Source of the DNA: Psilocybe cubensis
Lineage: Eukaryota
Direction of reading: 5' to 3'
DNA length: 64,000 nucleotides
Assembly: GCA_017499595.2 (NCBI GenBank)
Contig: CM039008.1
Coordinates: forward strand, 1 to 64,000
Each line of letters starts with the position of its first letter. The stretch's first letter is position 1. Positions 1,910 to 49,684 of the stretch are shown in pieces. Below the pieces are notes generated by a model. The model saw nothing but the letters and a program-made list of their open reading frames with translations. It made no database searches and was not told the DNA's origin. Position numbers and translations under genes: made by a program.

Positions 1910-3068
1910 ATGTCATCCCAATACTCTGCTGCATTCTCTCGTGCCATGTCCCCTACCCTGGACGCACTCACCCAGGCCGTCGTCAACAACACTGTCTTCG
2001 GCGTCAACGATGAAGCAGGCCGCCATAACGCTCTTATCGACGAGCTGGCCACTGTGGTCATCAAAAAAATAGCTGAGTGCCGCTCCGTTGACCAAGTCAT
2101 AGACTGCGTCTTTTTTGACTATCGTGCTGCCCTCAGGGAGTTTCTCCTCAACCTCGCATCGTGGTGCGACAAGAGGGAAACAGTCAAGGCTAGCCTCGAG
2201 CGCCTTGAATCTGCCGTTAGCGCAGGCAACACGCCCAATCGCCTTAAGGTGAAGGCACCCGAGTTCCAACTTACGAAGGAATTCGCGGATGCCGGGTCAG
2301 CGGAGGCTCTTCGAGTCTCCACTACGTTCTCTTCCGCTCGTGATGCCTTCCAAAAGGCAATTAACGACGGCGCCGTTCAGGCGAAAAAGGACGAGCTGGC
2401 TTTTTGGGATGATAAATGCGCACTCAACTCTTGCTACGAAGCTGCTGCCCTCATCGTTAAGGCAACTTACGATGATCGCAAATCCAGCTACAAGCTCCCT
2501 GTTTTCTCTACAGACAACAAGGGAGTTCGACGTATAGCAGAGTGGGTAGTGTCTCCGCAAAAGAAAGCCGAATGCAGTGCGCTGCAAACTATACTGCCGG
2601 CGATCTTTTCTCATATCAAACAGATTGTCAACATGCGCCACCGCGCCTTGGCAATTAAGATTGAGAAAAAGCGGACGACTGCGGCAACAGCCGATGTCGA
2701 GATGGCCGATGCGACCAAACCAGGTCCATCGATTCAATCCCTTATTGATAAGGGCTTGAATGCACGTCTCAAAAAGCTCAACCTTGGATCTGTGGGCAAG
2801 AAGGCAAGTTTTCGTAACCCTTCACCCATAATTCTGGACACTAATTATTACTCTAATTACCCAGACTTTGTCTGGCCAGAATTCGTCCAAGGCTCCTCAA
2901 CCTCAGGCCAGGAAAGCTGGCCCTTCGAAACCCAAGTCGTCGTCGACGCCTTCGCAGAGGAAGCCTCAAACCAAGGCTTCCAACAAGGTCGACAACAAGA
3001 AGAAAGGGAAGGGGAGAGCTCCCGTCAAGAACAACGATCCAAAGGGAAAGGGAAAGGCAAGAGCCTAG
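1910..3068 (+). CDS. Predicted spliced ORF1 isoform (exons 1910-2803 + 2865-3068, about 365 aa) with a Lys-rich C-terminal tail
   Basis: Removing the GC-AG intron joins ...VGKK to TLSGQNSSKAPQ...KGKGKARA*; substitutions between copies are synonymous in this frame. Confidence 0.72.
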
Positions 3069-5443: not shown

Positions 5444-5556
5444 AAAGAATACTAGCGCGTAAGGCGTAAAGCATTAGAAAAAAACCCTAACCGTAAGTAT
5501 TCCTTGCTATAAAGTAACAAACATCTACTTACAAGCAACACTTTGGATTAAATAGC

Positions 5557-5630
5557 TAAACCTAAACCCTAAACCCTAAACCCTAAACCCTAACCTAACC
5601 CCAACCCTAAGCTAACTAAGTCTAACCTTA
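5557..5630 (+). repeat. Element-internal telomere-like block (TAAACCC x4-5 grading into TAACCTAACCCCAACCCTAAGCTAAC)
   Basis: Same block between the 3' UTR and pLTR in every copy that spans this region. Confidence 0.85.
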
Positions 5631-6153
5631 GTAGGAAGTAAGGTAGGCGTGTGAACTTCCGAACGGCATGTGATTGTGAAGGGCCGGATCTAATTTAGTA
5701 CATGGGAAAAGTTACTTAGTACTTCGGGAAAAGTTCCTTAGTACCGTGGAAACATTTTTGATGGACCGGATCATGAACTGTCCAATTAAGATTCACAACA
5801 ATCAATCATTCTATTGTTTGATTGTTAGGTAAGGACCCAGGTAAGCTATTTATACTCTAGACATGTGAATATTCCCATGTCGCGGTTACTCGGAGCCACG
5901 TAACCAGAGTAATCTATATCCATGTGATTCACATCACAGTCAATAACCCACGATGTCAAAGAACAAAAGTGTTGGATCCACTTTTGACAGGTTACCATGT
6001 GCCACATCGACCCGTGACACTCTGTTCATCAGAGACCTGTCTAACTTGACAATAAACATTGACAGATTTGTGATAGTCGGTAAGATACATGACAGCTGCG
6101 CAGCATCACTTCACGCGCTGTCATCGGATGTCTAGAACATTCCTTCTAAGAAT

Positions 6154-6218
6154 AGCCACTGAAGAGTCTATAAAGACGAAAGGGCTGGTTGTTGGGATCC
6201 CCCAACAGCCCTCTGGCC
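6154..6218 (+). ncRNA. Intact type I hammerhead ribozyme (predicted cleavage after C6213)
   Basis: Stem I GCCA/TGGC, core CTGAAGA, stem II GTCT-ataa-AGAC, GAAA, stem III GGGCTG/CAGCCC, NUH = CUC. Confidence 0.92.
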
Positions 6219-6290
6219 TTCTTTCTATTTCAAACTCACAGTTTAAACTAGTCGCTCGCACCTCGCTTCGCTCGGTGCTCGCTCCCCCCC

Positions 6291-6974: not shown

Positions 6975-7903
6975 CAAGTACTCGTCCTCTCCCAAACTCC
7001 TGCCGCTTGTGCCTTCCCAACTCATCCGGGAGCCCTTTCGTCACTGATCTTGCCCTTGACTCGGGGACGTTTCATCGACATGTTGGCTGCCTCACGGCAA
7101 GCGGGGCCCTTTTTCTTTCACTCGCTCACGCCTTCTATGTTGGGTTACGGAGGTCATACAAACTCGTTTTAGTCTAGCTGCGGGGTTATCCAGCTATGAT
7201 GACTTTGTAATTCGAGGGCGCGCAGTTCTTCAATGGGTATGGACATCAGGTGAGAGTACACTGGGGGTTGTCAGGACCAGCTCTGCTGGATACGCTCCTG
7301 GCAAGTCGGTTGCAGCCGGCGACACTACCGAATTGCTGGGACGTCCTAAAGCTTGTGGGTACCGCCGACCGCTGGAAACAGCCTAGGCACCGGTGGCGAC
7401 CGGGTATGGTAACAATCCCCAAGATTCAGCGAAAGCTGGAATGGATAATCAGCAGCGAATCCGTAACGGTCACGCCGACGGAAGCGTTCAACGACTAGGT
7501 GGTAGTGGGGTCTTCGGATCTTAAGATATAGTCTTGGGAGTGGGGAAACCCACATCTGGTATCTAAACCGCGCCTCGCTGCTTACGAGGACGGCCCGAAG
7601 TCCAGAACCGCTTAAAACGCGGGTGACCCGGCCTCCCCTTAGTAAAGGGAGTTAACACAAGGATGGACAAATAGTTCGTCGCCGGAAATGAACCTGTGGC
7701 TGTAATGGCTGATGTGGCGCCCCTTGGTAAAGGGCTTAAAGGGTATTAGCCTGCCATATCCAATGGCATGAGAGTGTCCCTTGGTAAAGGACTTAATAGG
7801 CAATAGCCTGCTCTTTTGTCATGAGCGGTATGTAGTGATCGTTTGCCTGTACGGTAGCGCCCATTGCTTGCACTGGTCCACGCCCGTAAAAAATCACGAG
7901 CCG
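6975..7903 (+). ncRNA. Group I intron in hammerhead (copy B)
   Basis: 929 nt, same U/G boundaries and core as 867-1795. Confidence 0.92.
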
Positions 7904-12327: not shown

Positions 12328-13175
12328 CTTTCCATTTAACTCCCAGTTTAAACTAGTCGCTCGCACCTCGCTTCGCTCGGTGCTCGCTCCCCCCCTAAAC
12401 CCTAACCCTAAACCCTAAAACCCTAGCGCGTAAGGCGTAAAGCATTAGAAAAAAACCCTAACCGTAAGTATTCCTTGCTATAAAGTAACAAACATCTACT
12501 TACAAGCAACACTTTGGATTAAATAGCTAAACCTAAACCCTAAACCCTAAACCCTAAACCCTAACCTAACCCCAACCCTAAGCTAACTAAGTCTAACCTT
12601 AGTAGGAAGTAAGGTAGGCGTGTGAACTTCCGAACGGATGTGATTGTGAAGGGCCGGATCTAATTTAGTACATGGGAAAAGTTACTTAGTACTTCGGGAA
12701 AAGTTCCTTAGTACCGTGGAAACATTTTTGATGGACCGGATCATGAACTGTCCAATTAAGATTCACAACAATCAATCATTTGATTGTTAGGTAAGGACCC
12801 AGGTAAGCTATTTATACTCTAGACATGTGAATATTCCCATGTCGCGGTTACTCGGAGCCACGTAACCAGAGTACTCTATATCCATGTGATTCACATCACA
12901 GTCAATAACCCACAATGTCAAAGAACAAAAGTGTTGGATCCACTTTTGACAGGTTACCATGTGCCACATCGACCCGTGACACTCTGTTCATCAGAGATCT
13001 GTCTAACTTGACAATAAACATTGACAGATTTGTGATAGTCGGTAAGATACATGACAGCTGCGCAGCATCACTTCACGCGCTGTCATCGGATGTTCCAGAA
13101 CATTCCTTCTAAGAATAGCCACTGAAGAGTCTATAAAGACGAAAGGGCTGGCTGCTGATAACAATCAACAGCCCT

Positions 13176-14104
13176 CAAGTACTCGTCCTCTCCCAAACTC
13201 CTGCCGCTTGTGCCTTCCCAACTCATCCGGGAGCCCTTTCGTCACTGATCTTGCCCTTGACTCGGGGACGTTTCATCGACATGTTGGCTGCCTCACGGCA
13301 AGCGGGGCCCTTTTTCTTTCACTCGCTCACGCCTTCTATGTTGGGTTACGGAGGTCATACAAACTCGTTTTAGTCTAGCTGCGGGGTTATCCAGCTATGA
13401 TGACTTTGTAATTCGAGGGCGCGCAGTTCTTCAATGGGTATGGACATCAGGTGAGAGTACACTGGGGGTTGTCAGGACCAGCTCTGCTGGATACGCTCCT
13501 GGCAAGTCGGTTGCAGCCGGCGACACTACCGAATTGCTGGGACGTCCTAAAGCTTGTGGGTACCGCCGACCGCTGGAAACAGCCTAGGCACCGGTGGCGA
13601 CCGGGTATGGTAACAATCCCCAAGATTCAGCGAAAGCTGGAATGGATAATCAGCAGCGAATCCGTAACGGTCACGCCGACGGAAGCGTTCAACGACTAGG
13701 TGGTAGTGGGGTCTTCGGATCTTAAGATATAGTCTTGGGAGTGGGGAAACCCACATCTGGTATCTAAACCGCGCCTCGCTGCTTACGAGGACGGCCCGAA
13801 GTCCAGAACCGCTTAAAACGCGGGTGACCCGGCCTCCCCTTAGTAAAGGGAGTTAACACAAGGATGGACAAATAGTTCGTCGCCGGAAATGAACCTGTGG
13901 CTGTAATGGCTGATGTGGCGCCCCTTGGTAAAGGGCTTAAAGGGTATTAGCCTGCCATGTCCAATGGCATGAGAGTGTCCCTTGGTAAAGGACTTAATAG
14001 GCAATAGCCTGCTCTTTTGTCATGAGCGGTATGTAGTGATCGTTTGCCTGTACGGTAGCGCCCATTGCTTGCACTGGTCCACGCCCGTAAAAAATCACGA
14101 GCCG
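13176..14104 (+). ncRNA. Group I intron in hammerhead (copy C)
   Basis: 929 nt, same boundaries and core. Confidence 0.92.
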
Positions 14105-14216
14105 CTGGCCTTCTTTCCATTTAACTCACAGTTTAAACAAGTCGCTCGCACCTCGCTTCGCTCGGTGCTCGCTCCCCCCCTAAACCCAACGACTTTGCTA
14201 TTACCCAACAGCTACT

Positions 14217-17200
14217 ATGTCTTCCACTTACTCTGCTGCCTTCTCTCGTGCCATGTCCCCCACCCTGGACGCACTCACCCAGGCTGTCGTCAACAACACA
14301 GTTTTTGGCGTCAACGACGAAGCTGGCCGCCACAACGCCCTCATCGACGAGTTGGCCACTGTCGTCATCAAGAAAATAGCTGAGTGCCGCTCCATTGACC
14401 AGATTGTAGACTGCGTCTTTTTTGACTATCGTGCTGCCCTTAGGGAGTTTCTCCTCAACCTCGCATCGTGGTGCGATAAGAGGGAAACAGTCAAGGCTAG
14501 CCTCGAGCGCCTTGAACTTGCCGTTAGCGCAGGCAACACCCCCAATCGCCTTCGGGTGAAGGCTCCCGAGTTCCAACTTACGAAGGAATTCGCGGATGCC
14601 GGGTCAGCGGAAGCTCTTCGAGTTTCCTCTACGTTCTCCACCGCTCGTGATGTCTTCCAAAAGGCAATCAACGACGGCGCCATTCAGGCGAAAAAGGACG
14701 AACTGGCCTTTTGGGATGATAAATGCGCACTCAATAACTGTTATGAAGCTGCTGCCCTCATCGTTAAGACAACTTACGATGATCGCAAATCCAGCTATAA
14801 GCTCCCCGTTTTCTCTACAGACAACAAGGGAGTTCGTCGAATAACAGATTGGGTAGTGTCACCGCAGAAGAAGGCTGAATGCAGCGCATTGCAAACCATT
14901 TTGCCAGCCATCTTCTCTCATATCAAACAGATTGTCAACTTGCGCCACCGCGCTTTGGCAATCAAGATTGAGAAAAAGCGGTCGACTGCGGCAACAGCCG
15001 ATGTCGAGATGGCCGATGCGACCAAACCAGGTCCATCGATTCAATCCCTTATTGATAAGGGCTTGAATGCACGTCTCAAGAAGCTCAACCTTGGATCTGT
15101 GGGCAAGAAGGCAAGTTCTCGTAACCCTTCACCCATAACTCTGGATACTAATTACTATTCTAATTACCCAGACTTTGTCTGGCCAGAATTCGTCCAAGGC
15201 TCCTCAACCTCAGGCCAAGAAAGCTGGCCCTTCGAAATTCAAACCCTCGTCGACGCCTTCGCAGAAGAAGCCCCAAACCAAGGCTTCCAACAAGGTCGAC
15301 AACAAGAAGAAAGGGAAGGGGAGAGCTCCCGTCAAGAACGATCCAAAGGGAAAGGGAAAGGCAAGAGCCTAGACGCGCGGTCTAATGTAGTACCTTTTAC
15401 GTCGGTAAGACCCGCCTTCCCCAACTCTATTCCTGACGATATACTCACCATGACTAAAACAGACGCAGTTTCTTTTGTACACTTACATACGCCGATCTCA
15501 TTCTTGTTGGCTGGCCAGTATCGTAGTAGTGTACACTGTAGTCCTGGTGTGGTGGTCCCTGTAGATATAGCAAATGATTTGTCACTCGGACTCAATTATA
15601 TGTTTTTTACTCTACCTTCTCAAAGTCTGATCATGCAAGCATGGAATGATTTTCAACGAAGAATAAGATGGCGTATCTATTTTTTGTTTAAGGAAGGCAT
15701 GAACAAACCTTTTGATCCAGATTACGGAGTAAGCTCAAAAAAGAAAGAGAAACCTCCAGTATTACCGCAATACATGGAACTTGGCCTTTCGATGGGACGT
15801 CGGTACGTGCAACGCACGATCGCAAGTATCCCGGAAGAAGCCCTTACGGAGATGCGAAAGCACGCGTTCTCTCCTAAAAGGGACAAGATCCGTAAGTTTC
15901 TTATCGATAACAACTATGTTATTACGATGACAGATAAGAATCTTGGCCTCGCGGTGTCTGAACGCGACTGGATATTAAGGAATGAGCTCAATCTTCTTGA
16001 AGATGAACGTAACTATGAAGAGTTAGAATTCGAAGTTGCGCAAGAAGTAATGAAGAGCAAAATGATCCAGATGCAAACTCTTGCACGTACCGTCGAAGAT
16101 GAACATCTGTTTCTATTTGAACTTGGGTTGTCTCGATTCTTTCTATCGAATGTACCGGAAGACGGATCATCGTTCAAGTACCCTCAATTTCATGGTATAC
16201 CTAAAATCCACAAAAAACCTACTGGATTTAGGCCCATAATTCCGTGTCACTCTGTAGTATTTAATCCTGCAGCCAAGTTTGTATCAAAAGAGCTTAAGCC
16301 GATTATTAAATCGACTCCTTCAATCATTCACGGAACGAAGGATCTCTTTACGAGATTAAGCCAATTGCGTATAGACCCCAAACGACAATGGTATTTTGTC
16401 ACCGGGGATGTAGTTGCTTTCTATCCCAATATTCCGTTGGACTTGTGCATCGAAATCGTTTGTAATATGTACGAGGAATGGTTACTCAACGCTTCGGAAG
16501 AAAACACTGCATTAGCCCATATTAATCCAAATTCGTTAGAGAATAACTTGGTTAAATTGGGCATCTTTAAACGTGCTATCGAGATTGGCAATACGCAATT
16601 GATAACACAACATGGGTCTAGATATTTTAGACAAAAAAAATGGCCTCGCAATGGGCGTCGCGGATTCTCCGGACCTTGCTAACCTCTTTGGAGCCCATTT
16701 TGAAATAAAGTCAAAAATCTTAGACCACCCAAACGTGGCCTTCTATGGAAGGTACATCGACGATTGTTTCGCAATTGTTTACGCCGAGTCCGAAGCACTT
16801 GCACTTAATCTTATTAAAGAAACAATAAAGTTCGATGGTTGTGTTATCGAATGGGCTGTTTCCTCGTCGGGATGTCAATTTCTCGATGCTTTCATATTCA
16901 AGGAGTCTGGAAAACTTCATTGGAAGCCATTTGTCAAGACAGGAAACAACCGAGAACGAGTTCCATGGGTATCACATCATCCTTTGGACGTCAAACGTGG
17001 CGTCTACATTGGAGAGTTATCCAGGTTAGCCGTGCTATGTAGTACCAAGGAAATCTACATCGGAGCAATTAGAGACCTTAACGCTCTCTATTTGATGCGC
17101 GGTTATCCCGAAAACCTAGTCATGTCTTGGTGTAAGAAGAATATACAAGAACGTTGGGAAAAGCGATTCGCTTTACGAGTCGCAGAGCACGACGAATCCA

Positions 17201-17748
17201 TTCTTGTACTTAAAACCAGATTTGATCAGGTATGGAATTGGTTTTCAGCTGCTGAACTTGGAAAAACTGTTACCGAGTACTGGTCGGCATGGTATGAACA
17301 TGCCGAGAAAGGTTTGTATAGTGCAGACTCGTCCAGACCCCTTATCAAACCAGATCCAAATTACGTTCACGACCTCGATGATGTTCGCCCGGAGCTGTTC
17401 ACACAGATCCTCGTGGACGGAGAAACTGAGTTCGTACCGGATTTGAGGAAGATAGGACTACTCGGAAGTCGTTGGATAGTATCGCGAAAACGCAATACTA
17501 ATCTTTTCGACCTTGCAAATGTGTGGAAGAAAACAGTCTTTCGTAAACTGGATGAAGACATCGCTGAAAAAGGTGGTGTTGTTCCCGAAACTCAAAACGT
17601 TAATGAAACTTATCATTCTGCTTTAGTTGAAGCTGCTGAACAGATAAGTATCGAAAGTGATAACGAGATAATACTTCATAGACGTTCAATCTCACAAGAG
17701 AGGGAACATCCAGAATTCGGCAGAATATCCAAATCTTACAACCGATGA
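14217..17748 (+). pseudogene. Penelope-like RT ORF with a +1 frameshift (extra A in the run at about 16633-16640)
   Basis: GACAAAAAAAATGG has 8 A against 7 in other copies; ORF splits into 821 + 378 aa; could be a homopolymer sequencing error. Confidence 0.75.
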
Positions 17749-18457
17749 AAAGAATACTAGCGCGTAAGGCGTAAAGCATTAGAAAAAAACCCTAACCGTA
17801 AGTATTCCTTGCTACAAAGTAACAAACATCTACTTACAAGCAACACATTGGATTAAATAGCTAAACCTAAACCTAAACCCTAAACCCTAAACCCTAAGCC
17901 CTAACCTAACCCCAACCCTAAGCTAACTAAGTCTAACCTTAGTAGGAAGTAAGGTAGGCGTGTGAACTTCCGAAAGGCATGTGATTGTGAAGGGCCGGAT
18001 CTAATTTAGTACATGGGAAAAGTTACTTAGTACCTCGGGAAAAGTTCCTTAGTACCGTGGAAACATTTTTGATGGACCGGATCATGAACTGTCCAATTAA
18101 GATTCACAACAATCAATCAATTGATTGTTAGGTAAGGACCCAGGTAAGCTATTTATACTCTTGACATGAGAATATTCCCATGTCACGGTTACTCGGAGCC
18201 ACGTAACCAGAGTATTTTATATCCATGTGATTCACATCACAGTCAATAACCCACGATGTCAAAGAACAAAAGTGTTGGATCCACTTTTGACAGGTTACCA
18301 TGTGCCACATCGACCCGTGACACTCTGTTCATCAGAGATCTGTCTAACTTGACAATAAACATTGACAGATTTGTGATAGTCGGTAAGATACATGACAGCT
18401 GCGCAGCATCACTTCACGCGCTGTCATCGGATGTTCCAGAACATTCCTTCTAAGAAT

Positions 18458-18522
18458 AGCCACTGAAGAGTCTATAAAGACGAAAGGGCTGGCTGCTGAT
18501 AACAATCAACAGCCCTCTGGCC
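18458..18522 (+). ncRNA. Intact hammerhead ribozyme (copy C 3' pLTR)
   Basis: Same core; variant stem III extension TGAT-aaca-ATCA. Confidence 0.9.
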
Positions 18523-18592
18523 TTCTTTCCATTTAACTCACAGTTTAAACAAGTCGCTCGCACCTCGCTTCGCTCGGTGCTCGCTCCCCCCC

Positions 18593-20459: not shown

Positions 20460-20517
20460 TAAACCCTAAACCCTAAACCCTAAACCCTAAACCCTAAACC
20501 CTAAACCCTAACCCTAA

Positions 20518-23500
20518 AAGCTCCCCGTTTTCTCTACAGACAACAAGGGAGTTCGTCGAATAACAGATTGGGTAGTGTCACCGCAGAAGAAGGCTGAATG
20601 CAGCGCATTGCAAACCATTTTGCCAGCCATCTTCTCTCATATCAAACAGATTGTCAACTTGCGCCACCGCGCTTTGGCAATCAAGATTGAGAAAAAGCGG
20701 TCGACTGCGGCAACAGCCGATGTCGAGATGGCCGATGCGACCAAACCAGGTCCATCGATTCAATCCCTTATTGATAAGGGCTTGAATGCACGTCTCAAGA
20801 AGCTCAACCTTGGATCTGTGGGCAAGAAGGCAAGTTCTCGTAACCCTTCACCCATAATTCTGGATACTAATTACTATTCTAATTACCCAGACTTTGTCTG
20901 GCCAGAATTCGTCCAAGGCTCCTCAACCTCAGGCCAAGAAAGCTGGCCCTTCGAAATTCAAACCCTCGTCGACGCCTTCGCAGAAGAAGCCCCAAACCAA
21001 GGCTTCCAACAAGGTCGACAACAAGAAGAAAGGGAAGGGGAGAGCTCCCGTCAAGAACGATCCAAAGGGAAAGGGAAAGGCAAGAGCCTAGACGCGCGGT
21101 CTAATGTAGTACCTTTTACGTCGGTAAGACCCGCCTTCCCCAACTCTATTCCTGACGATATACTCACCATGACTAAAACAGACGCAGTTTCTTTTGTACA
21201 CTTACATACGCCGATCTCATTCTTGTTGGCTGGCCAGTATCGTAGTAGTGTACACTGTAGTCCTGGTGTGGTGGTCCCTGTAGATATAGCAAATGATTTG
21301 TCGCTCGGACTCAATTATATGTTTTTTACTCTGCCTTCTCAAAGTCTGATCATGCAAGCATGGAATGATTTTCAACGAAGAATAAGATGGCGTATCTATT
21401 TTTTGTTTAAGGAAGGCATGAACAAACCTTTTGATCCAGATTACGGAGTAAGCTCAAAAAAGAAAGAGAAACCTCCAGTATTACCGCAATACATGGAACT
21501 TGGCCTTTCGATGGGACGTCGGTACGTGCAACGCACGATCGCAAGTATCCCGGAAGAAGCCCTTACGGAGATGCGAAAGCACGCGTTCTCTCCTAAAAGG
21601 GACAAGATCCGTAAGTTTCTTATCGATAACAACTATGTTATTACGATGACAGATAAGAATCTTGGCCTCGCGGTGTCTGAACGCGACTGGATATTAAGGA
21701 ATGAGCTCAATCTTCTTGAAGATGAACGTAACTATGAAGAGTTAGAATTCGAAGTTGCGCAAGAAGTAATGAAGAGCAAAATGATCCAGATGCAAACTCT
21801 TGCACGTACCGTCGAAGATGAACATCTGTTTCTATTTGAACTTGGGTTGTCTCGATTCTTTCTATCGAATGTACCGGAAGACGGATCATCGTTCAAGTAT
21901 CCTCAATTTCATGGTATACCTAAAATCCACAAGAAACCTACTGGATTTAGGCCCATAATTCCGTGTCACTCTGTAGTATTTAATCCTGCAGCCAAGTTTG
22001 TATCAAAAGAGCTTAAGCCGATTATTAAATCGACTCCTTCAATCATTCACGGAACGAAGGATCTCTTTACGAGATTAAGCCAATTGCGTATAGACCCCAA
22101 ACGACAATGGTATTTTGTCACCGGGGATGTAGTTGCTTTCTATCCCAATATTCCGTTGGACTTGTGCATCGAAATCGTTTGTAGTATGTACGAGGAATGG
22201 TTACTCAATGCTTCGGAAGAAAACACTGCATTAGCCCATATTAATCCAAATTCGTTAGAGAATAACTTGGTTAAATTGGGCATCTTTAAACGTGCTATCG
22301 AGATTGGCAATACGCAATTGATAACACAACATGGGTCTAGATATTTTAGACAAAAAAATGGCCTCGCAATGGGCGTCGCGGATTCTCCGGACCTTGCTAA
22401 CCTCTTTGGAGCCCATTTTGAAATAAAGTCAAAAATCTTAGACCACCCTAATGTGGCCTTCTATGGAAGGTACATCGACGATTGTTTTGCAATTGTTTAC
22501 GCCGAGTCCGAAGCACTTGCACTTAATTTAATTAAAGAAACAATAAAGTTCGATGGTTGTGTTATCGAATGGGCTGTTTCCTCGTCGGGATGTCAATTTC
22601 TCGATGCTTTCATATTCAAGGAGTCTGGAAAACTTCATTGGAAGCCTTTTGTCAAGACAGGAAACAACCGAGAACGAGTTCCATGGGTATCACATCATCC
22701 TTTAGACGTCAAACGTGGCGTTTACATTGGAGAGTTATCCAGGTTAGCCGTGCTATGTAGTACCAAGGAAATCTACATTGGAGCAATTAGAGACCTTAAC
22801 GCTCTCTATTTGATGCGCGGTTATCCCGAAAACCTAGTCATGTCTTGGTGTAAGAAGAATATACAAGAACGTTGGGAAAAGCGATTCGCTTTACGAATCG
22901 CAGAGCACGACGAATCCATTCTTGTACTTAAAACCAGGTTTGATCAGGTATGGAATTGGTTTTCAGCTGCTGAACTTGGAAAAACTGTTACCGAGTACTG
23001 GTCGGCATGGTATGAACATGCCGAGAAAGGTCTGTATAGTGTAGACTCGTCCAGACCCCTTATCAAACCAGATCCAAATTACGTTCACGACCTCGATGAT
23101 GTTCGCCCGGAGCTGTTCACACAGATCCTCGTGGACGGAGAAACTGAGTTCGTACCGGATTTGAGGAAGATAGGACTACTCGGAAGTCGTTGGATAGTAT
23201 CGCGAAAGCGCAATACTAATCTTTTCGACCTTGCAAATGTGTGGAAGAAAACAGTTTTTCGTAAACTGGATGAAGACATTGCCGAAAAAGGTGGTGTTGT
23301 TCCCGAAACTCAAAACGTTAATGAAACTTATCATTCTGCTCTAGTTGAAGCTGCTGAACAGATAAGTATCGAAAGCGATAACGAGATAATACTTCATAGA
23401 CGTTCAATCTCACAAGAGAGGGAACATCCAGAATTCGGCAGAATATCCAAATCTTACAACCGATGAAAAGAATACTAGCGCTTAAGGCGTAAAGCATTAG

Positions 23501-24309
23501 AAAAAAACCCTAACCGTAAGTATTCATTGCTATAAAGTAACAAACATCTACTTACAAGCAACACATTGGATTAAATAGCTAAACCTAAACCTAAACCCTA
23601 AACCCTAAACCCTAAGCCCTAACCTAACCCCAACCCTAAGCTAACTAAGTCTAACCTTAGTAGGAAGTAAGGTAGGCGTGTGAACTTCCGAACGGCATGT
23701 GATTGTGAAGGGCCGGATCTAATTTAGTACATGGGAAAAGTTACTTAGTACTTCGGGAAAAGTTCCTTAGTACCGTGGAAACATTTTTGATGGACCGGAT
23801 CATGAACTGTCCAATTAAGATTCACAACAATCAATCAATTGATTGTTAGGTAAGGACCCAGGTAAGCTATTTATACTCTTGACATGTGAATATTCCCATG
23901 TCGCGGTTACTCGGAGCCACGTAACCAGAGTAATCTATATCCATGTGATTCACATCACAGTCAATAACCCACGATGTCAAAGAACAAAAGTGTTGGATCC
24001 ACTTTTGACAGGTTACCATGTGCCACATTGACCCGTGACACTCTGTTCATCAGAGACCTGTCTAACTTGACAATAAACATTGACAGATTTGTGATAGTCG
24101 GTAAGATACATGACAGCTGCACAGCATCACTTCACGCGCTGTCATCGGATGTCTAGAACATTCCTTCTAAGAATAGCCACTGAAGAGTCTATAAAGACGA
24201 AAGGGCTGGTTGTTGGTACCCCCCAACAGCCCTCTGGCCTTCTTTCCATTTAACTCACAGTTTAAACAAGTCGCTCGCACCTCGCTTCGCTCGGTGCTCG
24301 CTCCCCCCC
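20518..24309 (+). mobile_element. 5'-truncated copy E (ORF remnant to 23466; intact hammerhead 24175-24239)
   Basis: Starts at AAGCTCCCCG (KLPVF) after telomeric tract 20460-20517. Confidence 0.92.
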
Positions 24310-24365: not shown

Positions 24366-25136
24366 TAGCCACTGAAGAGTCTATAAAGACGAAAGGGCTG
24401 GCTGCTGATAACAATCAACAGCCCTCTGGCTACTTTCCATTTAACTCACAGTTTAAATTAGTCGCTCGCACCTCGCTTCGCTCGGTGCTCGCTCCCCCCC
24501 TAAACCCGTTACCATGTGCCACATCGACCCGTGACACTCTGTTCATCAGAGATCTGTCTAACTTGACAATAAACATTGACAGATTTGTGATAGTCGGTAA
24601 GATACATGACAGCTGCGCAGCATCACTTCACGCGCTGTCATCGGATGTTCCAGAACATTCCTTCTAAGAATAGCCACTGAAGAGTCTATAAAGACGAAAG
24701 GGCTGGCTGCTGATAACAATCAACAGCCCTCTGGCTACTTTCCATTTAACTCACAGTTTAAATTAGTCGCTCGCACCTCGCTTCGCTCGGTGCTCGCTCC
24801 CCCCCTAAACCCTAAACCCTAAACCCTAAACCCTAAACCCTAAACCCTAAACCCTAAACCCGTGACACTCTGTTCATCAGAGACCTGTCTAACTTGACAA
24901 TAAACATTGACAGATTTGTGATAGTCGGTAAGATACATGACAGCTGCACAGCATCACTTCACGCGCTGTCATCGGATGTCTAGAACATTCCTTCTAAGAA
25001 TAGCCACTGAAGAGTCTATAAAGACGAAAGGGCTGGTTGTTGGTACCCCCCAACAGCCCTCTGGCCTTCTTTCCATTTAACTCACAGTTTAAACAAGTCG
25101 CTCGCACCTCGCTTCGCTCGGTGCTCGCTCCCCCCC
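24366..25136 (+). mobile_element. Three short 3'-terminal pLTR fragments (24366-24500, 24508-24805, 24862-25136), each with an intact hammerhead
   Basis: Each ends at CTCGCTCCCCCCC followed by TAAACCC repeats; hammerheads at 24366-24432, 24671-24737, 25001-25066. Confidence 0.9.
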
Positions 25137-28100
25137 TAAACCTAAACCTAAACCCTAAACCCTAAACCCTAAGCCCTAACCTAACCCCAACCCTAAGCTA
25201 ACTAAGTCTAACCTTAGTAGGAAGTAAGGTAGGCGTGTGAACTTCCGAACGGCATGTGATTGTGAAGGGCCGGATCTAATTTAGTACATGGGAAAAGTTA
25301 CTTAGTACTTCGGGAAAAGTTCCTTAGTACCGTGGAAACATTTTTGATGGACCGGATCATGAACTGTCCAATTAAGATTCACAACAATCAATCAATTGAT
25401 TGTTAGGTAAGGACCCAGGTAAGCTATTTATACTCTTGACATGTGAATATTCCCATGTCGCGGTTACTCGGAGCCACGTAACCAGAGTAATCTATATCCA
25501 TGTGATTCACATCACAGTCAATAACCCACGATGTCAAAGAACAAAAGTGTTGGATCCACTTTTGACAGGTTACCATGTGCCACATTGACCCGTGACACTC
25601 TGTTCATCAGAGACCTGTCTAACTTGACAATAAACATTGACAGATTTGTGATAGTCGGTAAGATACATGACAGCTGCACAGCATCACTTCACGCGCTGTC
25701 ATCGGATGTCTAGAACATTCCTTCTAAGAATAGCCACTGAAGAGTCTATAAAGACGAAAGGGCTGGTTGTTGGTACCCCCCAACAGCCCTCTGGCCTTCT
25801 TTCCATTTAACTCACAGTTTAAACAAGTCGCTCGCACCTCGCTTCGCTCGGTGCTCGCTCCCCCCCTAAACCCAACGACTTTGCTATTACCCAACAGCTA
25901 CCATGTCTTCCACTTACTCTGCTGCCTTCTCTCGTGCCATGTCCCCCACCCTGGACGCACTCACCCAGGCTGTCGTCAACAACACAGTTTTTGGCGTCAA
26001 CGACGAAGCTGGCCGCCACAACGCCCTCATCGACGAGTTGGCCACTGTCGTCATCAAGAAAATAGCTGAGTGCCGCTCCATTGACCAGATTGTAGACTGC
26101 GTCTTTTTTGACTATCGTGCTGCCCTTAGGGAGTTTCTCCTCAACCTCGCATCGTGGTGCGATAAGAGGGAAACAGTCAAGGCTAGCCTCGAGCGCCTTG
26201 AACTTGCCGTTAGCGCAGGCAACACCCCCAATCGCCTTCGGGTGAAGGCTCCCGAGTTCCAACTTACGAAGGAATTCGCGGATGCCGGGTCAGCGGAAGC
26301 TCTTCGAGTTTCCTCTACGTTCTCCACCGCTCGTGATGTCTTCCAAAAGGCAATCAACGACGGCGCCATTCAGGCGAAAAAGGACGAACTGGCCTTTTGG
26401 GATGATAAATGCGCACTCAATAACTGTTATGAAGCTGCTGCCCTCATCGTTAAGACAACTTACGATGATCGCAAATCCAGCTATAAGCTCCCCGTTTTCT
26501 CTACAGACAACAAGGGAGTTCGTCGAATAACAGATTGGGTAGTGTCACCGCAGAAGAAGGCTGAATGCAGCGCATTGCAAACCATTTTGCCAGCCATCTT
26601 CTCTCATATCAAACAGATTGTCAACTTGCGCCACCGCGCTTTGGCAATCAAGATTGAGAAAAAGCGGTCGACTGCGGCAACAGCCGATGTCGAGATGGCC
26701 GATGCGACCAAACCAGGTCCATCGATTCAATCCCTTATTGATAAGGGCTTGAATGCACGTCTCAAGAAGCTCAACCTTGGATCTGTGGGCAAGAAGGCAA
26801 GTTCTCGTAACCCTTCACCCATAATTCTGGATACTAATTACTATTCTAATTACCCAGACTTTGTCTGGCCAGAATTCGTCCAAGGCTCCTCAACCTCAGG
26901 CCAAGAAAGCTGGCCCTTCGAAATTCAAACCCTCGTCGACGCCTTCGCAGAAGAAGCCCCAAACCAAGGCTTCCAACAAGGTCGACAACAAGAAGAAAGG
27001 GAAGGGGAGAGCTCCCGTCAAGAACGATCCAAAGGGAAAGGGAAAGGCAAGAGCCTAGACGCGCGGTCTAATGTAGTACCTTTTACGTCGGTAAGACCCG
27101 CCTTCCCCAACTCTATTCCTGACGATATACTCACCATGACTAAAACAGACGCAGTTTCTTTTGTACACTTACATACGCCGATCTCATTCTTGTTGGCTGG
27201 CCAGTATCGTAGTAGTGTACACTGTAGTCCTGGTGTGGTGGTCCCTGTAGATATAGCAAATGATTTGTCGCTCGGACTCAATTATATGTTTTTTACTCTG
27301 CCTTCTCAAAGTCTGATCATGCAAGCATGGAATGATTTTCAACGAAGAATAAGATGGCGTATCTATTTTTTGTTTAAGGAAGGCATGAACAAACCTTTTG
27401 ATCCAGATTACGGAGTAAGCTCAAAAAAGAAAGAGAAACCTCCAGTATTACCGCAATACATGGAACTTGGCCTTTCGATGGGACGTCGGTACGTGCAACG
27501 CACGATCGCAAGTATCCCGGAAGAAGCCCTTACGGAGATGCGAAAGCACGCGTTCTCTCCTAAAAGGGACAAGATCCGTAAGTTTCTTATCGATAACAAC
27601 TATGTTATTACGATGACAGATAAGAATCTTGGCCTCGCGGTGTCTGAACGCGACTGGATATTAAGGAATGAGCTCAATCTTCTTGAAGATGAACGTAACT
27701 ATGAAGAGTTAGAATTCGAAGTTGCGCAAGAAGTAATGAAGAGCAAAATGATCCAGATGCAAACTCTTGCACGTACCGTCGAAGATGAACATCTGTTTCT
27801 ATTTGAACTTGGGTTGTCTCGATTCTTTCTATCGAATGTACCGGAAGACGGATCATCGTTCAAGTATCCTCAATTTCATGGTATACCTAAAATCCACAAG
27901 AAACCTACTGGATTTAGGCCCATAATTCCGTGTCACTCTGTAGTATTTAATCCTGCAGCCAAGTTTGTATCAAAAGAGCTTAAGCCGATTATTAAATCGA
28001 CTCCTTCAATCATTCACGGAACGAAGGATCTCTTTACGAGATTAAGCCAATTGCGTATAGACCCCAAACGACAATGGTATTTTGTCACCGGGGATGTAGT

Positions 28101-30276
28101 TGCTTTCTATCCCAATATTCCGTTGGACTTGTGCATCGAAATCGTTTGTAGTATGTACGAGGAATGGTTACTCAATGCTTCGGAAGAAAACACTGCATTA
28201 GCCCATATTAATCCAAATTCGTTAGAGAATAACTTGGTTAAATTGGGCATCTTTAAACGTGCTATCGAGATTGGCAATACGCAATTGATAACACAACATG
28301 GGTCTAGATATTTTAGACAAAAAAATGGCCTCGCAATGGGCGTCGCGGATTCTCCGGACCTTGCTAACCTCTTTGGAGCCCATTTTGAAATAAAGTCAAA
28401 AATCTTAGACCACCCTAATGTGGCCTTCTATGGAAGGTACATCGACGATTGTTTTGCAATTGTTTACGCCGAGTCCGAAGCACTTGCACTTAATTTAATT
28501 AAAGAAACAATAAAGTTCGATGGTTGTGTTATCGAATGGGCTGTTTCCTCGTCGGGATGTCAATTTCTCGATGCTTTCATATTCAAGGAGTCTGGAAAAC
28601 TTCATTGGAAGCCTTTTGTCAAGACAGGAAACAACCGAGAACGAGTTCCATGGGTATCACATCATCCTTTAGACGTCAAACGTGGCGTTTACATTGGAGA
28701 GTTATCCAGGTTAGCCGTGCTATGTAGTACCAAGGAAATCTACATTGGAGCAATTAGAGACCTTAACGCTCTCTATTTGATGCGCGGTTATCCCGAAAAC
28801 CTAGTCATGTCTTGGTGTAAGAAGAATATACAAGAACGTTGGGAAAAGCGATTCGCTTTACGAATCGCAGAGCACGACGAATCCATTCTTGTACTTAAAA
28901 CCAGGTTTGATCAGGTATGGAATTGGTTTTCAGCTGCTGAACTTGGAAAAACTGTTACCGAGTACTGGTCGGCATGGTATGAACATGCCGAGAAAGGTCT
29001 GTATAGTGTAGACTCGTCCAGACCCCTTATCAAACCAGATCCAAATTACGTTCACGACCTCGATGATGTTCGCCCGGAGCTGTTCACACAGATCCTCGTG
29101 GACGGAGAAACTGAGTTCGTACCGGATTTGAGGAAGATAGGACTACTCGGAAGTCGTTGGATAGTATCGCGAAAGCGCAATACTAATCTTTTCGACCTTG
29201 CAAATGTGTGGAAGAAAACAGTTTTTCGTAAACTGGATGAAGACATTGCCGAAAAAGGTGGTGTTGTTCCCGAAACTCAAAACGTTAATGAAACTTATCA
29301 TTCTGCTCTAGTTGAAGCTGCTGAACAGATAAGTATCGAAAGCGATAACGAGATAATACTTCATAGACGTTCAATCTCACAAGAGAGGGAACATCCAGAA
29401 TTCGGCAGAATATCCAAATCTTACAACCGATGAAAAGAATACTAGCGCTTAAGGCGTAAAGCATTAGAAAAAAACCCTAACCGTAAGTATTCATTGCTAT
29501 AAAGTAACAAACATCTACTTACAAGCAACACATTGGATTAAATAGCTAAACCTAAACCTAAACCCTAAACCCTAAACCCTAAGCCCTAACCTAACCCCAA
29601 CCCTAAGCTAACTAAGTCTAACCTTAGTAGGAAGTAAGGTAGGCGTGTGAACTTCCGAACGGCATGTGATTGTGAAGGGCCGGATCTAATTTAGTACATG
29701 GGAAAAGTTACTTAGTACTTCGGGAAAAGTTCCTTAGTACCGTGGAAACATTTTTGATGGACCGGATCATGAACTGTCCAATTAAGATTCACAACAATCA
29801 ATCAATTGATTGTTAGGTAAGGACCCAGGTAAGCTATTTATACTCTTGACATGTGAATATTCCCATGTCGCGGTTACTCGGAGCCACGTAACCAGAGTAA
29901 TCTATATCCATGTGATTCACATCACAGTCAATAACCCACGATGTCAAAGAACAAAAGTGTTGGATCCACTTTTGACAGGTTACCATGTGCCACATTGACC
30001 CGTGACACTCTGTTCATCAGAGACCTGTCTAACTTGACAATAAACATTGACAGATTTGTGATAGTCGGTAAGATACATGACAGCTGCACAGCATCACTTC
30101 ACGCGCTGTCATCGGATGTCTAGAACATTCCTTCTAAGAATAGCCACTGAAGAGTCTATAAAGACGAAAGGGCTGGTTGTTGGTACCCCCCAACAGCCCT
30201 CTGGCCTTCTTTCCATTTAACTCACAGTTTAAACAAGTCGCTCGCACCTCGCTTCGCTCGGTGCTCGCTCCCCCCC
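25137..30276 (+). mobile_element. Full-length copy F with an intron-less 5' pLTR
   Basis: CAGCCCT|CTGGCC junction at 25790/25791 runs into TAAACCCAACGAC and the ORF; hammerheads at 25731-25796 and 30141-30206. Confidence 0.92.
25903..29433 (+). CDS. Penelope-like RT polyprotein (1176 aa), intact
   Basis: Same RT motifs. Confidence 0.93.
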   Translation: MSSTYSAAFSRAMSPTLDALTQAVVNNTVFGVNDEAGRHNALIDELATVVIKKIAECRSIDQIVDCVFFDYRAALREFLLNLASWCDKRETVKASLERLELAVSAGNTPNRLRVKAPEFQLTKEFADAGSAEALRVSSTFSTARDVFQKAINDGAIQAKKDELAFWDDKCALNNCYEAAALIVKTTYDDRKSSYKLPVFSTDNKGVRRITDWVVSPQKKAECSALQTILPAIFSHIKQIVNLRHRALAIKIEKKRSTAATADVEMADATKPGPSIQSLIDKGLNARLKKLNLGSVGKKASSRNPSPIILDTNYYSNYPDFVWPEFVQGSSTSGQESWPFEIQTLVDAFAEEAPNQGFQQGRQQEEREGESSRQERSKGKGKGKSLDARSNVVPFTSVRPAFPNSIPDDILTMTKTDAVSFVHLHTPISFLLAGQYRSSVHCSPGVVVPVDIANDLSLGLNYMFFTLPSQSLIMQAWNDFQRRIRWRIYFLFKEGMNKPFDPDYGVSSKKKEKPPVLPQYMELGLSMGRRYVQRTIASIPEEALTEMRKHAFSPKRDKIRKFLIDNNYVITMTDKNLGLAVSERDWILRNELNLLEDERNYEELEFEVAQEVMKSKMIQMQTLARTVEDEHLFLFELGLSRFFLSNVPEDGSSFKYPQFHGIPKIHKKPTGFRPIIPCHSVVFNPAAKFVSKELKPIIKSTPSIIHGTKDLFTRLSQLRIDPKRQWYFVTGDVVAFYPNIPLDLCIEIVCSMYEEWLLNASEENTALAHINPNSLENNLVKLGIFKRAIEIGNTQLITQHGSRYFRQKNGLAMGVADSPDLANLFGAHFEIKSKILDHPNVAFYGRYIDDCFAIVYAESEALALNLIKETIKFDGCVIEWAVSSSGCQFLDAFIFKESGKLHWKPFVKTGNNRERVPWVSHHPLDVKRGVYIGELSRLAVLCSTKEIYIGAIRDLNALYLMRGYPENLVMSWCKKNIQERWEKRFALRIAEHDESILVLKTRFDQVWNWFSAAELGKTVTEYWSAWYEHAEKGLYSVDSSRPLIKPDPNYVHDLDDVRPELFTQILVDGETEFVPDLRKIGLLGSRWIVSRKRNTNLFDLANVWKKTVFRKLDEDIAEKGGVVPETQNVNETYHSALVEAAEQISIESDNEIILHRRSISQEREHPEFGRISKSYNR

Positions 30277-48804: not shown

Positions 48805-49684
48805 AGAATTCGGCAGAATATCCAAATCTTACAACCGATGAAAAGAATACTAGCGCGTAAGGCGTAAAGCATTAGAAAAAAACCCTAACCGTAAGTATTC
48901 CTTGCTACAAAGTAACAAACATCTACTTACAAGCAACACATTGGATTAAATAGCTAAACCTAAACCTAAACCCTAAACCCTAAACCCTAAGCCCTAACCT
49001 AACCCCAACCCTAAGCTAACTAAGTCTAACCTTAGTAGGAAGTAAGGTAGGCGTGTGAACTTCCGAACGGCATGTGATTGTGAAGGGCCGGATCTAATTT
49101 AGTACATGGGAAAAGTTACTTAGTACTTCGGGAAAAGTTCCTTAGTACCGTGGAAACATTTTTGATGGACCGGATCATGAACTGTCCAATTAAGATTCAC
49201 AACAATCAATCATTTGATTGTTAGGTAAGGACCCAGGTAAGCTATTTATACTCTAGACATGTGAATATTCCCATGTCGCGGTTACTCGGAGCCACGTAAC
49301 CAGAGTACTCTATATCCATGTGATTCACATCACAGTCAATAACCCACGATGTCAAAGAACAAAAGTGTTGGATCCACTTTTGACAGGTTACCATGTGCCA
49401 CATCGACCCGTGACACTCTGTTCATCAGAAACCTGTCTAACTTGACAATAAACATTGACAGATTTGTGATAGTCGGTAAGATACATGACAGCTGCGCAGC
49501 ATCACTTCACGCGCTGTCATCGGATGTTCCAGAACATTCCTTCTAAGAATAGCCACTGAAGAGTCTATAAAGACGAAAGGGCTGGCTGCTGATATCAATC
49601 AACAGCCCTCTGGCTACTTTCCATTTAACTCACAGTTTAAACTAGTCGCTCGCACCTCGCTTCGCTCGGTGCTCGCTCCCCCCC
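48805..49684 (+). mobile_element. Interstitial 5'-truncated copy (last ORF codons, 3' UTR, pLTR, intact hammerhead 49550-49616)
   Basis: AGAATTCGGCAGAATATCC...TGA and full pLTR near-identical to the array copies. Confidence 0.92.

What the first reader, a model, noticed from the sequence alone, without database searches (positions are those of the whole stretch)
25731..25910. Precisely intron-less 5' repeat in front of an intact ORF: possible genomic record of splicing followed by reverse transcription
Seen: copy F has the same 5' layout as A-C (pLTR, CCCCCCCTAAACCCAACGAC, ATG) but lacks exactly the 929 nt. Inference: it was retrotransposed from spliced RNA, or from more than one turn around a circular RNA, which would mean the intron is active in vivo. 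Alternatively it belongs to a lineage that never had the intron.
Basis: partly seen in the sequence, partly recalled or inferred. Interest (0 to 1): 0.75.

Follow-up and report, generated by a model that had tools for sequence, protein, structure and literature searches.

The report
Intron-free copy of telomere retroelement
Copy F is a normal, intron-free copy of a telomere-adding retroelement; three younger neighbours carry a self-splicing group I intron inside the element's hammerhead ribozyme, so the filled and empty sites together, not F alone, record gain or loss of the intron at the RNA level.

Summary
F (5' repeat 25136-25866, motif 25860-25879, ATG 25903, intact ORF to 29433) lacks exactly the 929 nt that A, B and C carry. 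That insert is a group I intron (Rfam 71-73 bits).

The window is a chromosome end: a telomere followed by 11 head-to-tail insertions of an endonuclease-less Penelope-like (Coprina-type) retroelement. The intron sits 1 nt before the cleavage site of a conserved type-I hammerhead in the repeat.

The empty state is not special to F.
- 13 of 16 repeat sites in the window are empty, including the 3' repeats of A, B and C.
- 30 of 33 relatives with a hammerhead upstream of the ORF have F's layout.
- F's 5' repeat is identical to its own 3' repeat (0 differences) and differs at 18-21 sites from the A, B and C 5' repeats.
- The three introns differ by 1-2 nt of 929, while their hosts differ by 114-182 of about 4400 nt, right up to the intron borders.

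So the intron moves between element lineages, and F most likely never had it (about 0.55). Descent from spliced RNA is not excluded (about 0.3). Copying of more than one unit length of template is supported. No RNA data were available.

The parts
1..245 (+). Terminal telomere tract (CCCTAAA)n, C-rich strand reading inward
246..6290 (+). Unit 1 (copy A, most distal and so youngest): 5' repeat with intron, ORF 1910-5443, 3' repeat 5550-6290 without intron
867..1795 (+). Group I intron in A, 929 nt
6975..7903 (+). Group I intron in B, 929 nt
13176..14104 (+). Group I intron in C, 929 nt. The internal guide UGGGGGUUGU at intron nt 288-297 pairs with exon ACAGCCCU plus intron CA
12396..18592 (+). 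Unit 3 (copy C): its 5' end lies in the preceding period's 3' UTR, so the template exceeded one unit. Its 5' repeat is recombinant relative to its 3' repeat. The ORF is split by a frameshift near 16633
25137..30276 (+). Unit 9 (copy F), the whole insertion: telomere-like tract, 5' repeat, ORF, 3' UTR, telomere-like tract, 3' repeat
25136..25866 (+). F 5' repeat (pLTR), intron-free. Identical to F 3' repeat 29546-30276 and to E 3' repeat 23579-24309
25732..25796 (+). Type-I hammerhead ribozyme: stem I AGCCA/UGGCC, core CUGAAGAG 25737-25744, stem II, CGAAA 25755-25759, long helix III. Predicted cleavage is at C25791|T25792. The intron site T25790|C25791 lies 1 nt upstream, inside the core
25860..25879 (+). 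Junction C7 - one telomeric unit TAAACCC - AACGAC, which joins the repeat to the 5' UTR. It is inherited and the same in A, B, C and F
25903..29433 (+). F ORF, 1176 aa, intact. RT of the endonuclease-less PLE type
29546..30276 (+). F 3' repeat, ending in C7 joined to telomeric repeats
20460..24309 (+). Unit 5 (copy E): 5'-truncated sister of F, 99.97% identical over 3220 nt, with the same repeat haplotype
48805..49684 (+). Interstitial relic: the last codons of the ORF, the 3' UTR and an intron-free repeat followed by telomeric repeats. An older chromosome end

Best explanation
F is a standard full-length insertion of a telomere-specific, endonuclease-less Penelope-like (Coprina-type) retroelement. 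The elements are added one after another to the chromosome end. The RNA's C-rich end (C7 plus CCCUAAA-type repeats) pairs with the G-rich telomere overhang, and the element's reverse transcriptase extends the chromosome. Copying often stops early, which gives 5' truncation, and telomerase then recaps the end. When copying goes past the ORF start it runs on into a second copy of the terminal repeat. This happens because the template is longer than one unit: a circle, a concatemer, or end-to-end template jumps between hammerhead-processed RNAs. That second copy is F's 5' repeat, made from the same intron-free sequence as its 3' repeat. The 929-nt group I intron of A-C is a separate passenger. 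It sits between U16.1 and C17 of the repeat's hammerhead and has entered the templates of the three youngest insertions precisely. The most likely route is reverse splicing into element RNA, followed by copying with the element's own RT. F most likely comes from a master that never held the intron. What is shown: the anatomy, the identities, the intron-versus-host divergence and the family survey. What is inferred: the priming mechanism, the nature of the longer-than-unit template, the direction (gain in A-C) and the RNA route.
For: The array is a telomere followed by 11 units, each ending in C7 plus (TAAACCC)n, with variable 5' ends. The RT protein's best matches are fungal RT-domain proteins. 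Of the 120 relatives listed, none has a GIY-YIG domain among the precomputed Pfam hits. The hammerhead core is conserved in 27 of 27 aligned repeats, and stem II covaries (14 of 27 changed on both sides at one pair). F5 = F3 = E3 with 0 differences, while F5 differs from A5, B5 and C5 at 19, 21 and 18 positions. 13 of 16 sites in the window are empty, although all 16 keep the guide target AACAGCCCTC. 30 of 33 related loci with a hammerhead upstream of the ORF have 108-193 nt from hammerhead to ATG, against 166 in F. The introns differ at 1-2 of 929 nt while the hosts differ at 114-182 of about 4400 (Fisher P 9e-8 to 2e-14). The nearest flank differences between filled copies lie 10 nt upstream and 5-14 nt downstream of the intron. 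No ORF longer than 69 aa lies wholly inside the intron. The intron variant at position 212 is shared by B and C, against the host grouping of A with B. In raw DNA reads of run X22 the intron depth is about one third of the ORF 5' depth (86-115 against 248-386). F lies internal to A-C in the array, so it is older under terminal addition.
Against: In the first 900 nt of the body and in the 76 nt between the intron site and C7, F and C differ at 1 position in total. On the host tree for that segment F therefore nests among intron-bearing copies, and one loss is more parsimonious than two gains. The intron looks splicing-competent, so spliced RNA should be a common template. An F-type master with an intron elsewhere in the genome cannot be excluded, because no whole genome was held. 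The model does not by itself explain why the intron is found only in 5' repeats: 3 of 4 there against 0 of 12 elsewhere (P=0.007). The time order rests on one empty and three filled full-length copies. Reverse splicing has not been shown.
Confidence: 0.55

Rival explanations
1. F descends from an intron-bearing master whose transcript self-spliced. Splicing restored the hammerhead, the RNA was processed (possibly circularised) and reverse transcribed for more than one turn, giving two intron-free repeats.
For: The borders are exact group I borders. A 10-bp P1 with a U.G pair at the splice site is the best duplex in intron nt 10-420, and it appears in the minimum-energy fold. The ribozyme core is kept by selection: 35 of 69 predicted pairs show compensatory changes across 5 related introns. 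F shares the 5' ORF and the segment downstream of the site with intron-bearing C (1 difference). A longer-than-unit template is supported. One contig of run X1 joins the intron's last 13 nt to intron nt 15. This looks like an intron circle or a nested reverse-splice junction, so the ribozyme may be active.
Against: No filled repeat with F-type exons was seen. F5 differs from A5, B5 and C5 at 18-21 sites and equals its own 3' repeat. The empty state is the family default and needs no splicing. Near-identical introns in diverged hosts show that the presence of the intron is not a stable vertical character.
Confidence: 0.3
2. A DNA-level event. The intron was copied into A-C by endonuclease-driven homing or by gene conversion between telomeres, or it was deleted from F at the DNA level.
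For: Homing is the usual route for group I introns. Subtelomeres recombine often, and the ORFs here are mosaics.
Against: There is no endonuclease-sized ORF in the intron. 13 empty sites with a perfect target persist beside the filled ones. There is no co-conversion of flanking markers: differences start 5-14 nt from the borders. An exact 929-nt DNA deletion at U|...G| without flanking repeats is improbable.
Confidence: 0.08
3. An assembly artefact. F's intron-free 5' repeat in front of an ORF is a mis-join of repeats.
For: The region is highly repetitive. Unit C carries a 1-nt insertion near 16633 that is absent from reads of other runs.
Against: Intron-free junctions with the F-type loop occur in contigs of X1 (depth 320.6) and in raw reads of X22 (12 reads). 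In X22 the ORF 5' depth exceeds the intron depth about threefold. 30 of 33 independent metagenome loci show the same layout.
Confidence: 0.03

Closest known systems
Endonuclease-deficient Penelope-like elements at telomeres (Coprina in fungi, Athena in rotifers; Gladyshev and Arkhipova 2007, recalled; passages seen in PMC8557442 and PMC13159263)
   Same: A single RT ORF without an endonuclease. Location at chromosome ends. 3' ends joined to reverse-complement telomeric repeats. Flanking direct repeats (pLTRs) with hammerhead motifs. 5' truncations capped by telomeric repeats.
   Different: Some copies carry a group I intron inside the pLTR. None of the passages I read, and none of my paper searches, mention this.
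Fungal PLE hammerheads (Cervera and de la Pena 2014, PMC4209133, passages)
   Same: Type-I topology, a large helix III, short helices I and II, and a position in the pLTR.
   Different: In A-C the core is split between U16.1 and C17 by a 929-nt ribozyme. The Rfam score of the intact F copy is below threshold (25.4 against 56.3 bits).
Nuclear group I introns of rDNA and their proposed spread by reverse splicing (PMC3679873 and PMC8395846, abstracts; PMC1299323, abstract)
   Same: A group I core (the subclass was not determined), U.G at the 5' splice site, a terminal G, no endonuclease gene, sporadic distribution and near-identical copies at one site.
   Different: The host is a retrotransposon repeat at a telomere, not an rRNA gene. 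Both abstracts say all known nuclear group I introns lie in rDNA. Here the host itself supplies the reverse transcriptase that the reverse-splicing route needs.
Retrozymes and hammerhead circular RNAs (PMC5680766, abstract; bioRxiv 10.64898/2026.07.22.740005, passages)
   Same: Hammerhead-bounded units. A proposed circular RNA and rolling-circle copying would give longer-than-unit products with identical repeats.
   Different: This element is autonomous and telomere-primed. Circles were not observed here.
Processed retrocopies and intron loss through reverse transcription of spliced RNA (recalled textbook model); intron-retaining Penelope elements (Arkhipova 2003, mentioned in a PMC4209133 passage)
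   Same: Precise absence of an intron in a copy made through RNA.
   Different: No matching intron-bearing parent for F was found. The intron is self-splicing, not spliceosomal.

Membership tests
EN-deficient Penelope-like element (Coprina type) | RT ORF without a GIY-YIG endonuclease | tested here: met
   Of the 120 relatives listed, none shows a GIY-YIG Pfam domain; only PF00078, PF28514 and PF26215 appear. The YIDD and other RT motifs are visible. My own Pfam scan of P0001 returned no family at all.
EN-deficient Penelope-like element (Coprina type) | Terminal location, with the 3' end joined to reverse-complement telomeric repeats | tested here: met
   All 16 repeat ends are followed directly by TAAACC-type telomeric units: a single TAAACCC in front of the four full-length ORFs and of unit u7, longer tracts at the other 11. 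The telomere lies at 1-245.
EN-deficient Penelope-like element (Coprina type) | Direct flanking repeats (pLTR) with a hammerhead motif | tested here: met
EN-deficient Penelope-like element (Coprina type) | RT groups within the Coprina clade in a phylogeny with reference PLEs | not tested
   No reference Coprina, Athena or TERT sequences were at hand. The relatives are basidiomycete proteins.
Type-I hammerhead ribozyme | Core CUGANGA...GAAA, an A15.1-U16.1 pair, H17, and three helices | tested here: met
   The core is invariant in 27 of 27 aligned repeats and stem II covaries. Covariation of stem I was read by eye from that alignment.
Type-I hammerhead ribozyme | Rfam model score above gathering | tested here: not met
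   RAGATH-1-hammerhead 25.4 bits against 56.3; Hammerhead_3 19.5 against 48.5
Type-I hammerhead ribozyme | Self-cleavage | not testable with these tools
   Needs in vitro transcription
Group I intron (the 929 nt absent from F) | Covariance-model match above gathering | tested here: met
   70.9-73.0 bits against 50
Group I intron (the 929 nt absent from F) | 5' exon ends in U paired with G of an internal guide (P1); intron ends in G | tested here: met
Group I intron (the 929 nt absent from F) | Self-splicing in vitro or in vivo | not testable with these tools
   No RNA holder was listed
Nuclear group I introns as known | Interrupts an rRNA gene | tested here: not met
   The host is the retroelement repeat. 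The statement of the rule comes from the abstracts of PMC3679873 and PMC8395846.
Retrocopy made from spliced RNA | Precise lack of the intron at the splice junction | tested here: met
Retrocopy made from spliced RNA | An intron-bearing parent with matching exons | tested here: not met
   F5 differs from A5, B5 and C5 at 19, 21 and 18 sites and equals F3 and E3. Only this window was tested.
Retrocopy made from spliced RNA | Spliced transcripts exist | not testable with these tools
   No RNA run holds the stretch. Run X15 ('RNA?') gave 3 small contigs, none at the junction.

The most novel reading that the evidence does not exclude
The filled sites (A-C) and the empty sites (F and all 3' repeats) are the two states of an RNA-level mobility cycle of a nuclear group I intron that lives outside rDNA. 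The intron reverse-splices into the hammerhead site of telomeric retroelement RNA and is written into DNA by the element's own telomerase-like RT. Forward splicing restores the hammerhead. Because it splits the 5' hammerhead, the intron may act as a safety catch that keeps the full-length template uncut. Alternatively, by pairing its guide with the duplicate exon in the 3' repeat, it may back-splice the unit into a circle. Either role could explain why it is kept only in 5' repeats, here and in the distant relative L078.
Probability: 0.35. Interest if true: 0.9.

Novelty: new variant of a known kind. Interest (0 to 1): 0.6.

Why it matters
F by itself is the ordinary form of a known kind of telomeric retroelement. 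It matters as the empty allele of something unusual: a group I intron in a nuclear retrotransposon, placed inside another ribozyme. The intron copies are almost identical while their hosts are diverged right up to the borders. Spread of group I introns by reverse splicing has been argued for decades, mainly from phylogeny. The step that has been hard to account for is reverse transcription and integration. Here the host RNA is itself the template of a reverse transcriptase and is integrated at chromosome ends in datable order. Filled and empty sites with identical flanks lie side by side. That makes the question testable in a culturable fungus with RT-PCR, in vitro splicing and strain comparisons.

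Tried and rejected
1. Whole genome: none is held for this window, so the phylogeny of all genomic copies could not be made.
2. RNA evidence: no RNA holder was listed among 24 runs. X15, guessed to be RNA, gave 3 small contigs at depth about 3, none near the junction. No conclusion on expression or splicing is drawn from this.
3. The caps on the look-up of sequencing runs and read laying (1 each) prevented re-laying on F or on the circle-like junction.
4. The Pfam scan of the F protein found no family. The family was assigned from relatives instead.
I used an nhmmer profile of the 5 intron cores instead. It recovered only its own 7 training hits and found nothing in the other 77 loci. This is a sequence-only search, so diverged introns could be missed. 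Rfam itself was run on only 16 of the 80 loci (L030 and L035 again).
6. Gladyshev and Arkhipova 2007 (PMC1890498) is not held. Its content is cited from recall and from passages in other papers.
7. Earlier findings of this scan: nothing by place, words or sequence.
8. Rejected: that the upstream repeat is an unrelated truncated insertion. The single-unit junction C7-TAAACCC-AACGAC is identical in 4 of 4 full-length copies.
9. Rejected: that the intron co-diverged with its hosts.
10. Considered: an internal guide at intron nt 129-133 or 208-213. The duplex at nt 288-297 is clearly stronger and lies directly before P2.
11. Several copying models were weighed: a circle, monomers with end-to-end jumps, and a faithful copy of a dimer-like transcript. 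None explains both the identity of 5' and 3' repeats and the 5'-only intron without an extra assumption.
Full report
WHAT IS THERE

The window begins with a telomere, (CCCTAAA)n at 1-245. Up to about 33.9 kb it consists of 11 head-to-tail units on the + strand. A relic unit lies at 48805-49684.

Every unit ends in ...GCTCGCTCCCCCCC joined to TAAACCC-type telomeric repeats. The 5' ends vary:
- inside the ORF (D, E, G);
- inside the repeat (u6, u7, u8);
- at a telomere-like tract in front of the repeat (A, B, F, u10);
- further still, in the preceding period's 3' UTR (C).

These are described.

The ORF (F: 25903-29433, 1176 aa) is 99-100% identical to RT-domain proteins named Psilocybe cubensis by their sources. 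It has 240 relatives at E<=1e-3. Of the 120 listed, none has an endonuclease domain among the precomputed Pfam hits.

This is the anatomy of the endonuclease-less, telomere-attached Penelope-like elements (Coprina/Athena type), as described in passages of PMC8557442 and PMC13159263. The orientation fits priming on the G-rich overhang: sense strand on the C-rich strand, 3' ends pointing inward. That mechanism is inferred.

THE REPEAT AND ITS HAMMERHEAD

The repeat of about 731 nt (F 5': 25136-25866; F 3': 29546-30276) carries a type-I hammerhead:
- stem I AGCCA/UGGCC;
- core CUGAAGAG at 25737-25744;
- a short stem II;
- CGAAA;
- a long helix III;
- then U25790, C25791 and the predicted cleavage before U25792.

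Rfam scores it below threshold (25.4 against 56.3 bits). In an alignment of 27 repeats from the window and from 23 related metagenome loci, the core is invariant and stem II covaries: 14 of 27 sequences changed on both sides at one pair. Read by eye in that alignment, stem I covaries as well. Fungal PLE hammerheads with a large helix III are described in PMC4209133 (passages).

THE OBSERVATION

The motif CCCCCCCTAAACCCAACGAC occurs four times, in front of the four full-length ORFs. In A, B and C the repeat is interrupted by exactly 929 nt. In F the flanks are contiguous.

The insert is a group I intron:
- Rfam scores it at 70.9-73.0 bits.
- The 5' exon ends in U and the insert ends in G.
- The strongest duplex for the exon end anywhere in intron nt 10-420 is a 10-bp P1 with a U.G pair at the splice site. 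It is formed with UGGGGGUUGU at nt 288-297, directly before P2, and it is also present in the minimum-energy fold.
- No ORF longer than 69 aa lies wholly inside it.

The intron sits between U16.1 and C17 of the hammerhead, so the hammerhead is whole only in the empty state.

WHY F IS NOT SPECIAL

Four lines of evidence bear on this.

1. The empty state is the majority. 13 of 16 sites in the window are empty, although all 16 keep the 10-nt guide target. The empty sites include the 3' repeats of A and B, which are identical to their filled 5' repeats (0 differences in 741 and 738 nt). They also include the 3' repeat of C.

2. F's 5' repeat is identical to F's 3' repeat and to that of its 5'-truncated sister E. 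E is 99.97% identical to F over 3220 nt. F's 5' repeat differs at 19, 21 and 18 positions from the 5' repeats of A, B and C. Some of these differences lie within 10-16 nt of the junction. F is therefore not a spliced copy of any filled repeat seen here.

3. Across the family the empty layout is the norm. A metagenome scan gave 80 loci of relatives. In 33 of them a hammerhead lies upstream of the ORF start. In 30 of those the distance from hammerhead to predicted ATG is 108-193 nt, against 166 in F. In 3 it is 1245-2003 nt. Those 3 hold group I introns of the same family:
   - L078: two introns at 72.8 and 76.5 bits;
   - L030: 34.2 bits;
   - L035: 31.6 bits, like L030 below the gathering score.

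   An nhmmer profile of the five intron cores recovered these and found nothing in the other 77 loci. That profile is sequence-only, and Rfam itself was run on only 16 of the 80 loci.

4. In raw DNA reads of run X22, depth over the intron (86-115) is about one third of that over the ORF 5' end (248-386) and about one thirteenth of that over the repeat. Intron-free 5' contexts therefore predominate there too. Intron-free junctions with several loop variants, including F's, occur in DNA runs X1 and X22.

THE INTRON MOVES

The three introns differ at 1-2 of 929 positions. Their hosts (repeat plus body) differ at 114-182 of about 4400 (P 9e-8 to 2e-14). In the first 300 nt of the body, A and C differ at 29 positions.

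Flanking differences between filled copies begin 10 nt upstream and 5-14 nt downstream of the borders. The shared block is therefore the intron itself, with no conversion tract. The one informative intron site (position 212) groups B with C, whereas the hosts group A with B.

Vertical co-inheritance is excluded. Precise transfer into at least two repeat lineages is required. With no endonuclease gene, no co-conversion and many persistent empty targets, an RNA route is the best inference: reverse splicing, then copying by the element's RT. It is not shown.

Selection keeps the ribozyme. In the alignment of five related introns, 35 of 69 predicted pairs show compensatory changes.

DIRECTION FOR F

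For loss: F and C are almost identical in the 5' ORF and in the 76 nt downstream of the site (1 difference in about 980 nt). On that segment's tree F sits among filled copies. The intron also looks competent, so spliced templates should exist.

For never-had:
- the points listed under 'Why F is not special';
- the demonstrated mobility of the intron, which undermines parsimony on the host tree;
- the mosaic, recombinant nature of the copies (C's 5' repeat differs from its 3' repeat at 11 sites, and the ORFs are mosaics);
- position in the array. Under terminal addition F is older than C, B and A, the three youngest units, all of which are filled.

I put never-had at about 0.55, spliced-RNA origin at about 0.3, and DNA-level events or artefact at about 0.1.

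The longer-than-unit template is supported. All four units that reach AACGAC continue through one TAAACCC unit into a second repeat, and C continues into the 3' UTR. In 3 of 4 units the two repeats are identical, while lineages differ at 8-21 sites or more.

The data do not tell whether the template is a hammerhead-derived circle, a concatemer, or end-to-end template jumps. The circle idea is borrowed from retrozymes (PMC5680766 abstract; passages of the 2026 bioRxiv preprint).

The deeper inference, that the intron is active in vivo, is supported indirectly by the filled and empty pairs with identical flanks. A stray observation adds to it. One contig of run X1 (933 nt) begins with the last 13 nt of the intron joined to intron nt 15. 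That position follows ...GUCCU, a look-alike of the exon end ...GCCCU, and the junction is absent from the window. It resembles the circle junction of the Tetrahymena intron (recalled), or an intron reverse-spliced into another copy. It rests on one contig and could not be followed up.

UNEXPLAINED

The intron is found in 3 of 4 second-turn (5') repeats and in 0 of 12 other sites (P=0.007).

The same asymmetry appears in L078, whose RT is only 31% identical. Its 5' repeat holds an insertion of about 846 nt with a group I intron, starting about 15 nt after the predicted hammerhead cleavage, and its 3' repeat has none. It also appears in L035.

A faithful copy of a dimer-like transcript explains the asymmetry but not the 5'=3' identity. 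Circle or jump models explain the identity but not the asymmetry. A role for the intron in the 5' repeat, such as holding the 5' hammerhead inactive or back-splicing with the duplicate exon in the 3' repeat, is speculation.

COMPARISON AND NOVELTY

F is a new member of a known kind, a Coprina-type PLE. The polymorphism it belongs to is new in kind of host. The abstracts of PMC3679873 and PMC8395846 state that all known nuclear group I introns lie in rDNA. Four full-text searches found no paper describing a group I intron in a Penelope-like element. Supplements were not consulted.

VERDICT

The narrow claim (F as a record of splicing plus reverse transcription) is not established and is probably not the right reading. 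The system it points to is of real interest.

Noticed in passing
run X1 contig laid at window 13190-14109 (table 8 record 1; table 7): A 933-nt contig starts with 13 letters equal to the intron's 3' end, joined to intron nt 15 (after ...GTCCT, a look-alike of the exon end ...GCCCT). It looks like a reverse-transcribed intron circle or a nested reverse-splice product. The junction is not in the window.
   Followed up: partly
L078:7233-8078 and L078:8170-8985: A relative whose RT is 31% identical has two group I introns (Rfam 72.8 and 76.5 bits). One lies in the 5' repeat only. The second lies between a start codon with an MSS... opening, like this element's, and the long ORF, so splicing may be needed to make the protein. 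The exact splice sites were not settled.
   Followed up: partly
window 25830-25859; L078:13590-13612; L030:1551-1563; L021:~227-239: The word CTCGCTTCGCTCG near the 3' end of the repeat is conserved between elements whose proteins are only 31-46% identical. It may be a signal for the RT or for priming.
   Followed up: no
window 29546-29602, 25137-25192 and the same place in other units: An internal telomere-like tract with a fixed irregular pattern (TAAACC TAAACC TAAACCC x3 TAAGCCC TAACC TAACCCC) lies between the 3' UTR and the repeat. It also forms the 5' end of units A, B, F and u10. It looks like a programmed stop that leaves a telomere-like end.
   Followed up: partly
window 48805-49684: An interstitial relic (ORF end, 3' UTR, intron-free repeat) followed by telomeric repeats lies 15 kb inside the present array. 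It marks an older chromosome end.
   Followed up: no
window ~16633: Copy C's ORF is split by a frameshift. Reads and contigs of runs X1, X22 and X8 lack one base here (520 of 542 reads in X22). This is either a private mutation or an assembly error.
   Followed up: no
window 1-245; L030:6356-6459; L078:13008, 13628: The telomeric unit here and in L030 and L035 is the 7-nt CCCTAAA, while L078 has CCCTAA. From recall, most fungi are said to use TTAGGG.
   Followed up: no
window 12521-13175 vs 17861-18592: C's 5' repeat is a recombinant. Its distal half resembles the A and X49 types, while its proximal half equals C's own 3' repeat. The ORFs of A, B, C and F are mosaics in 300-nt windows. Template switching or conversion among lineages is frequent.
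   Followed up: partly
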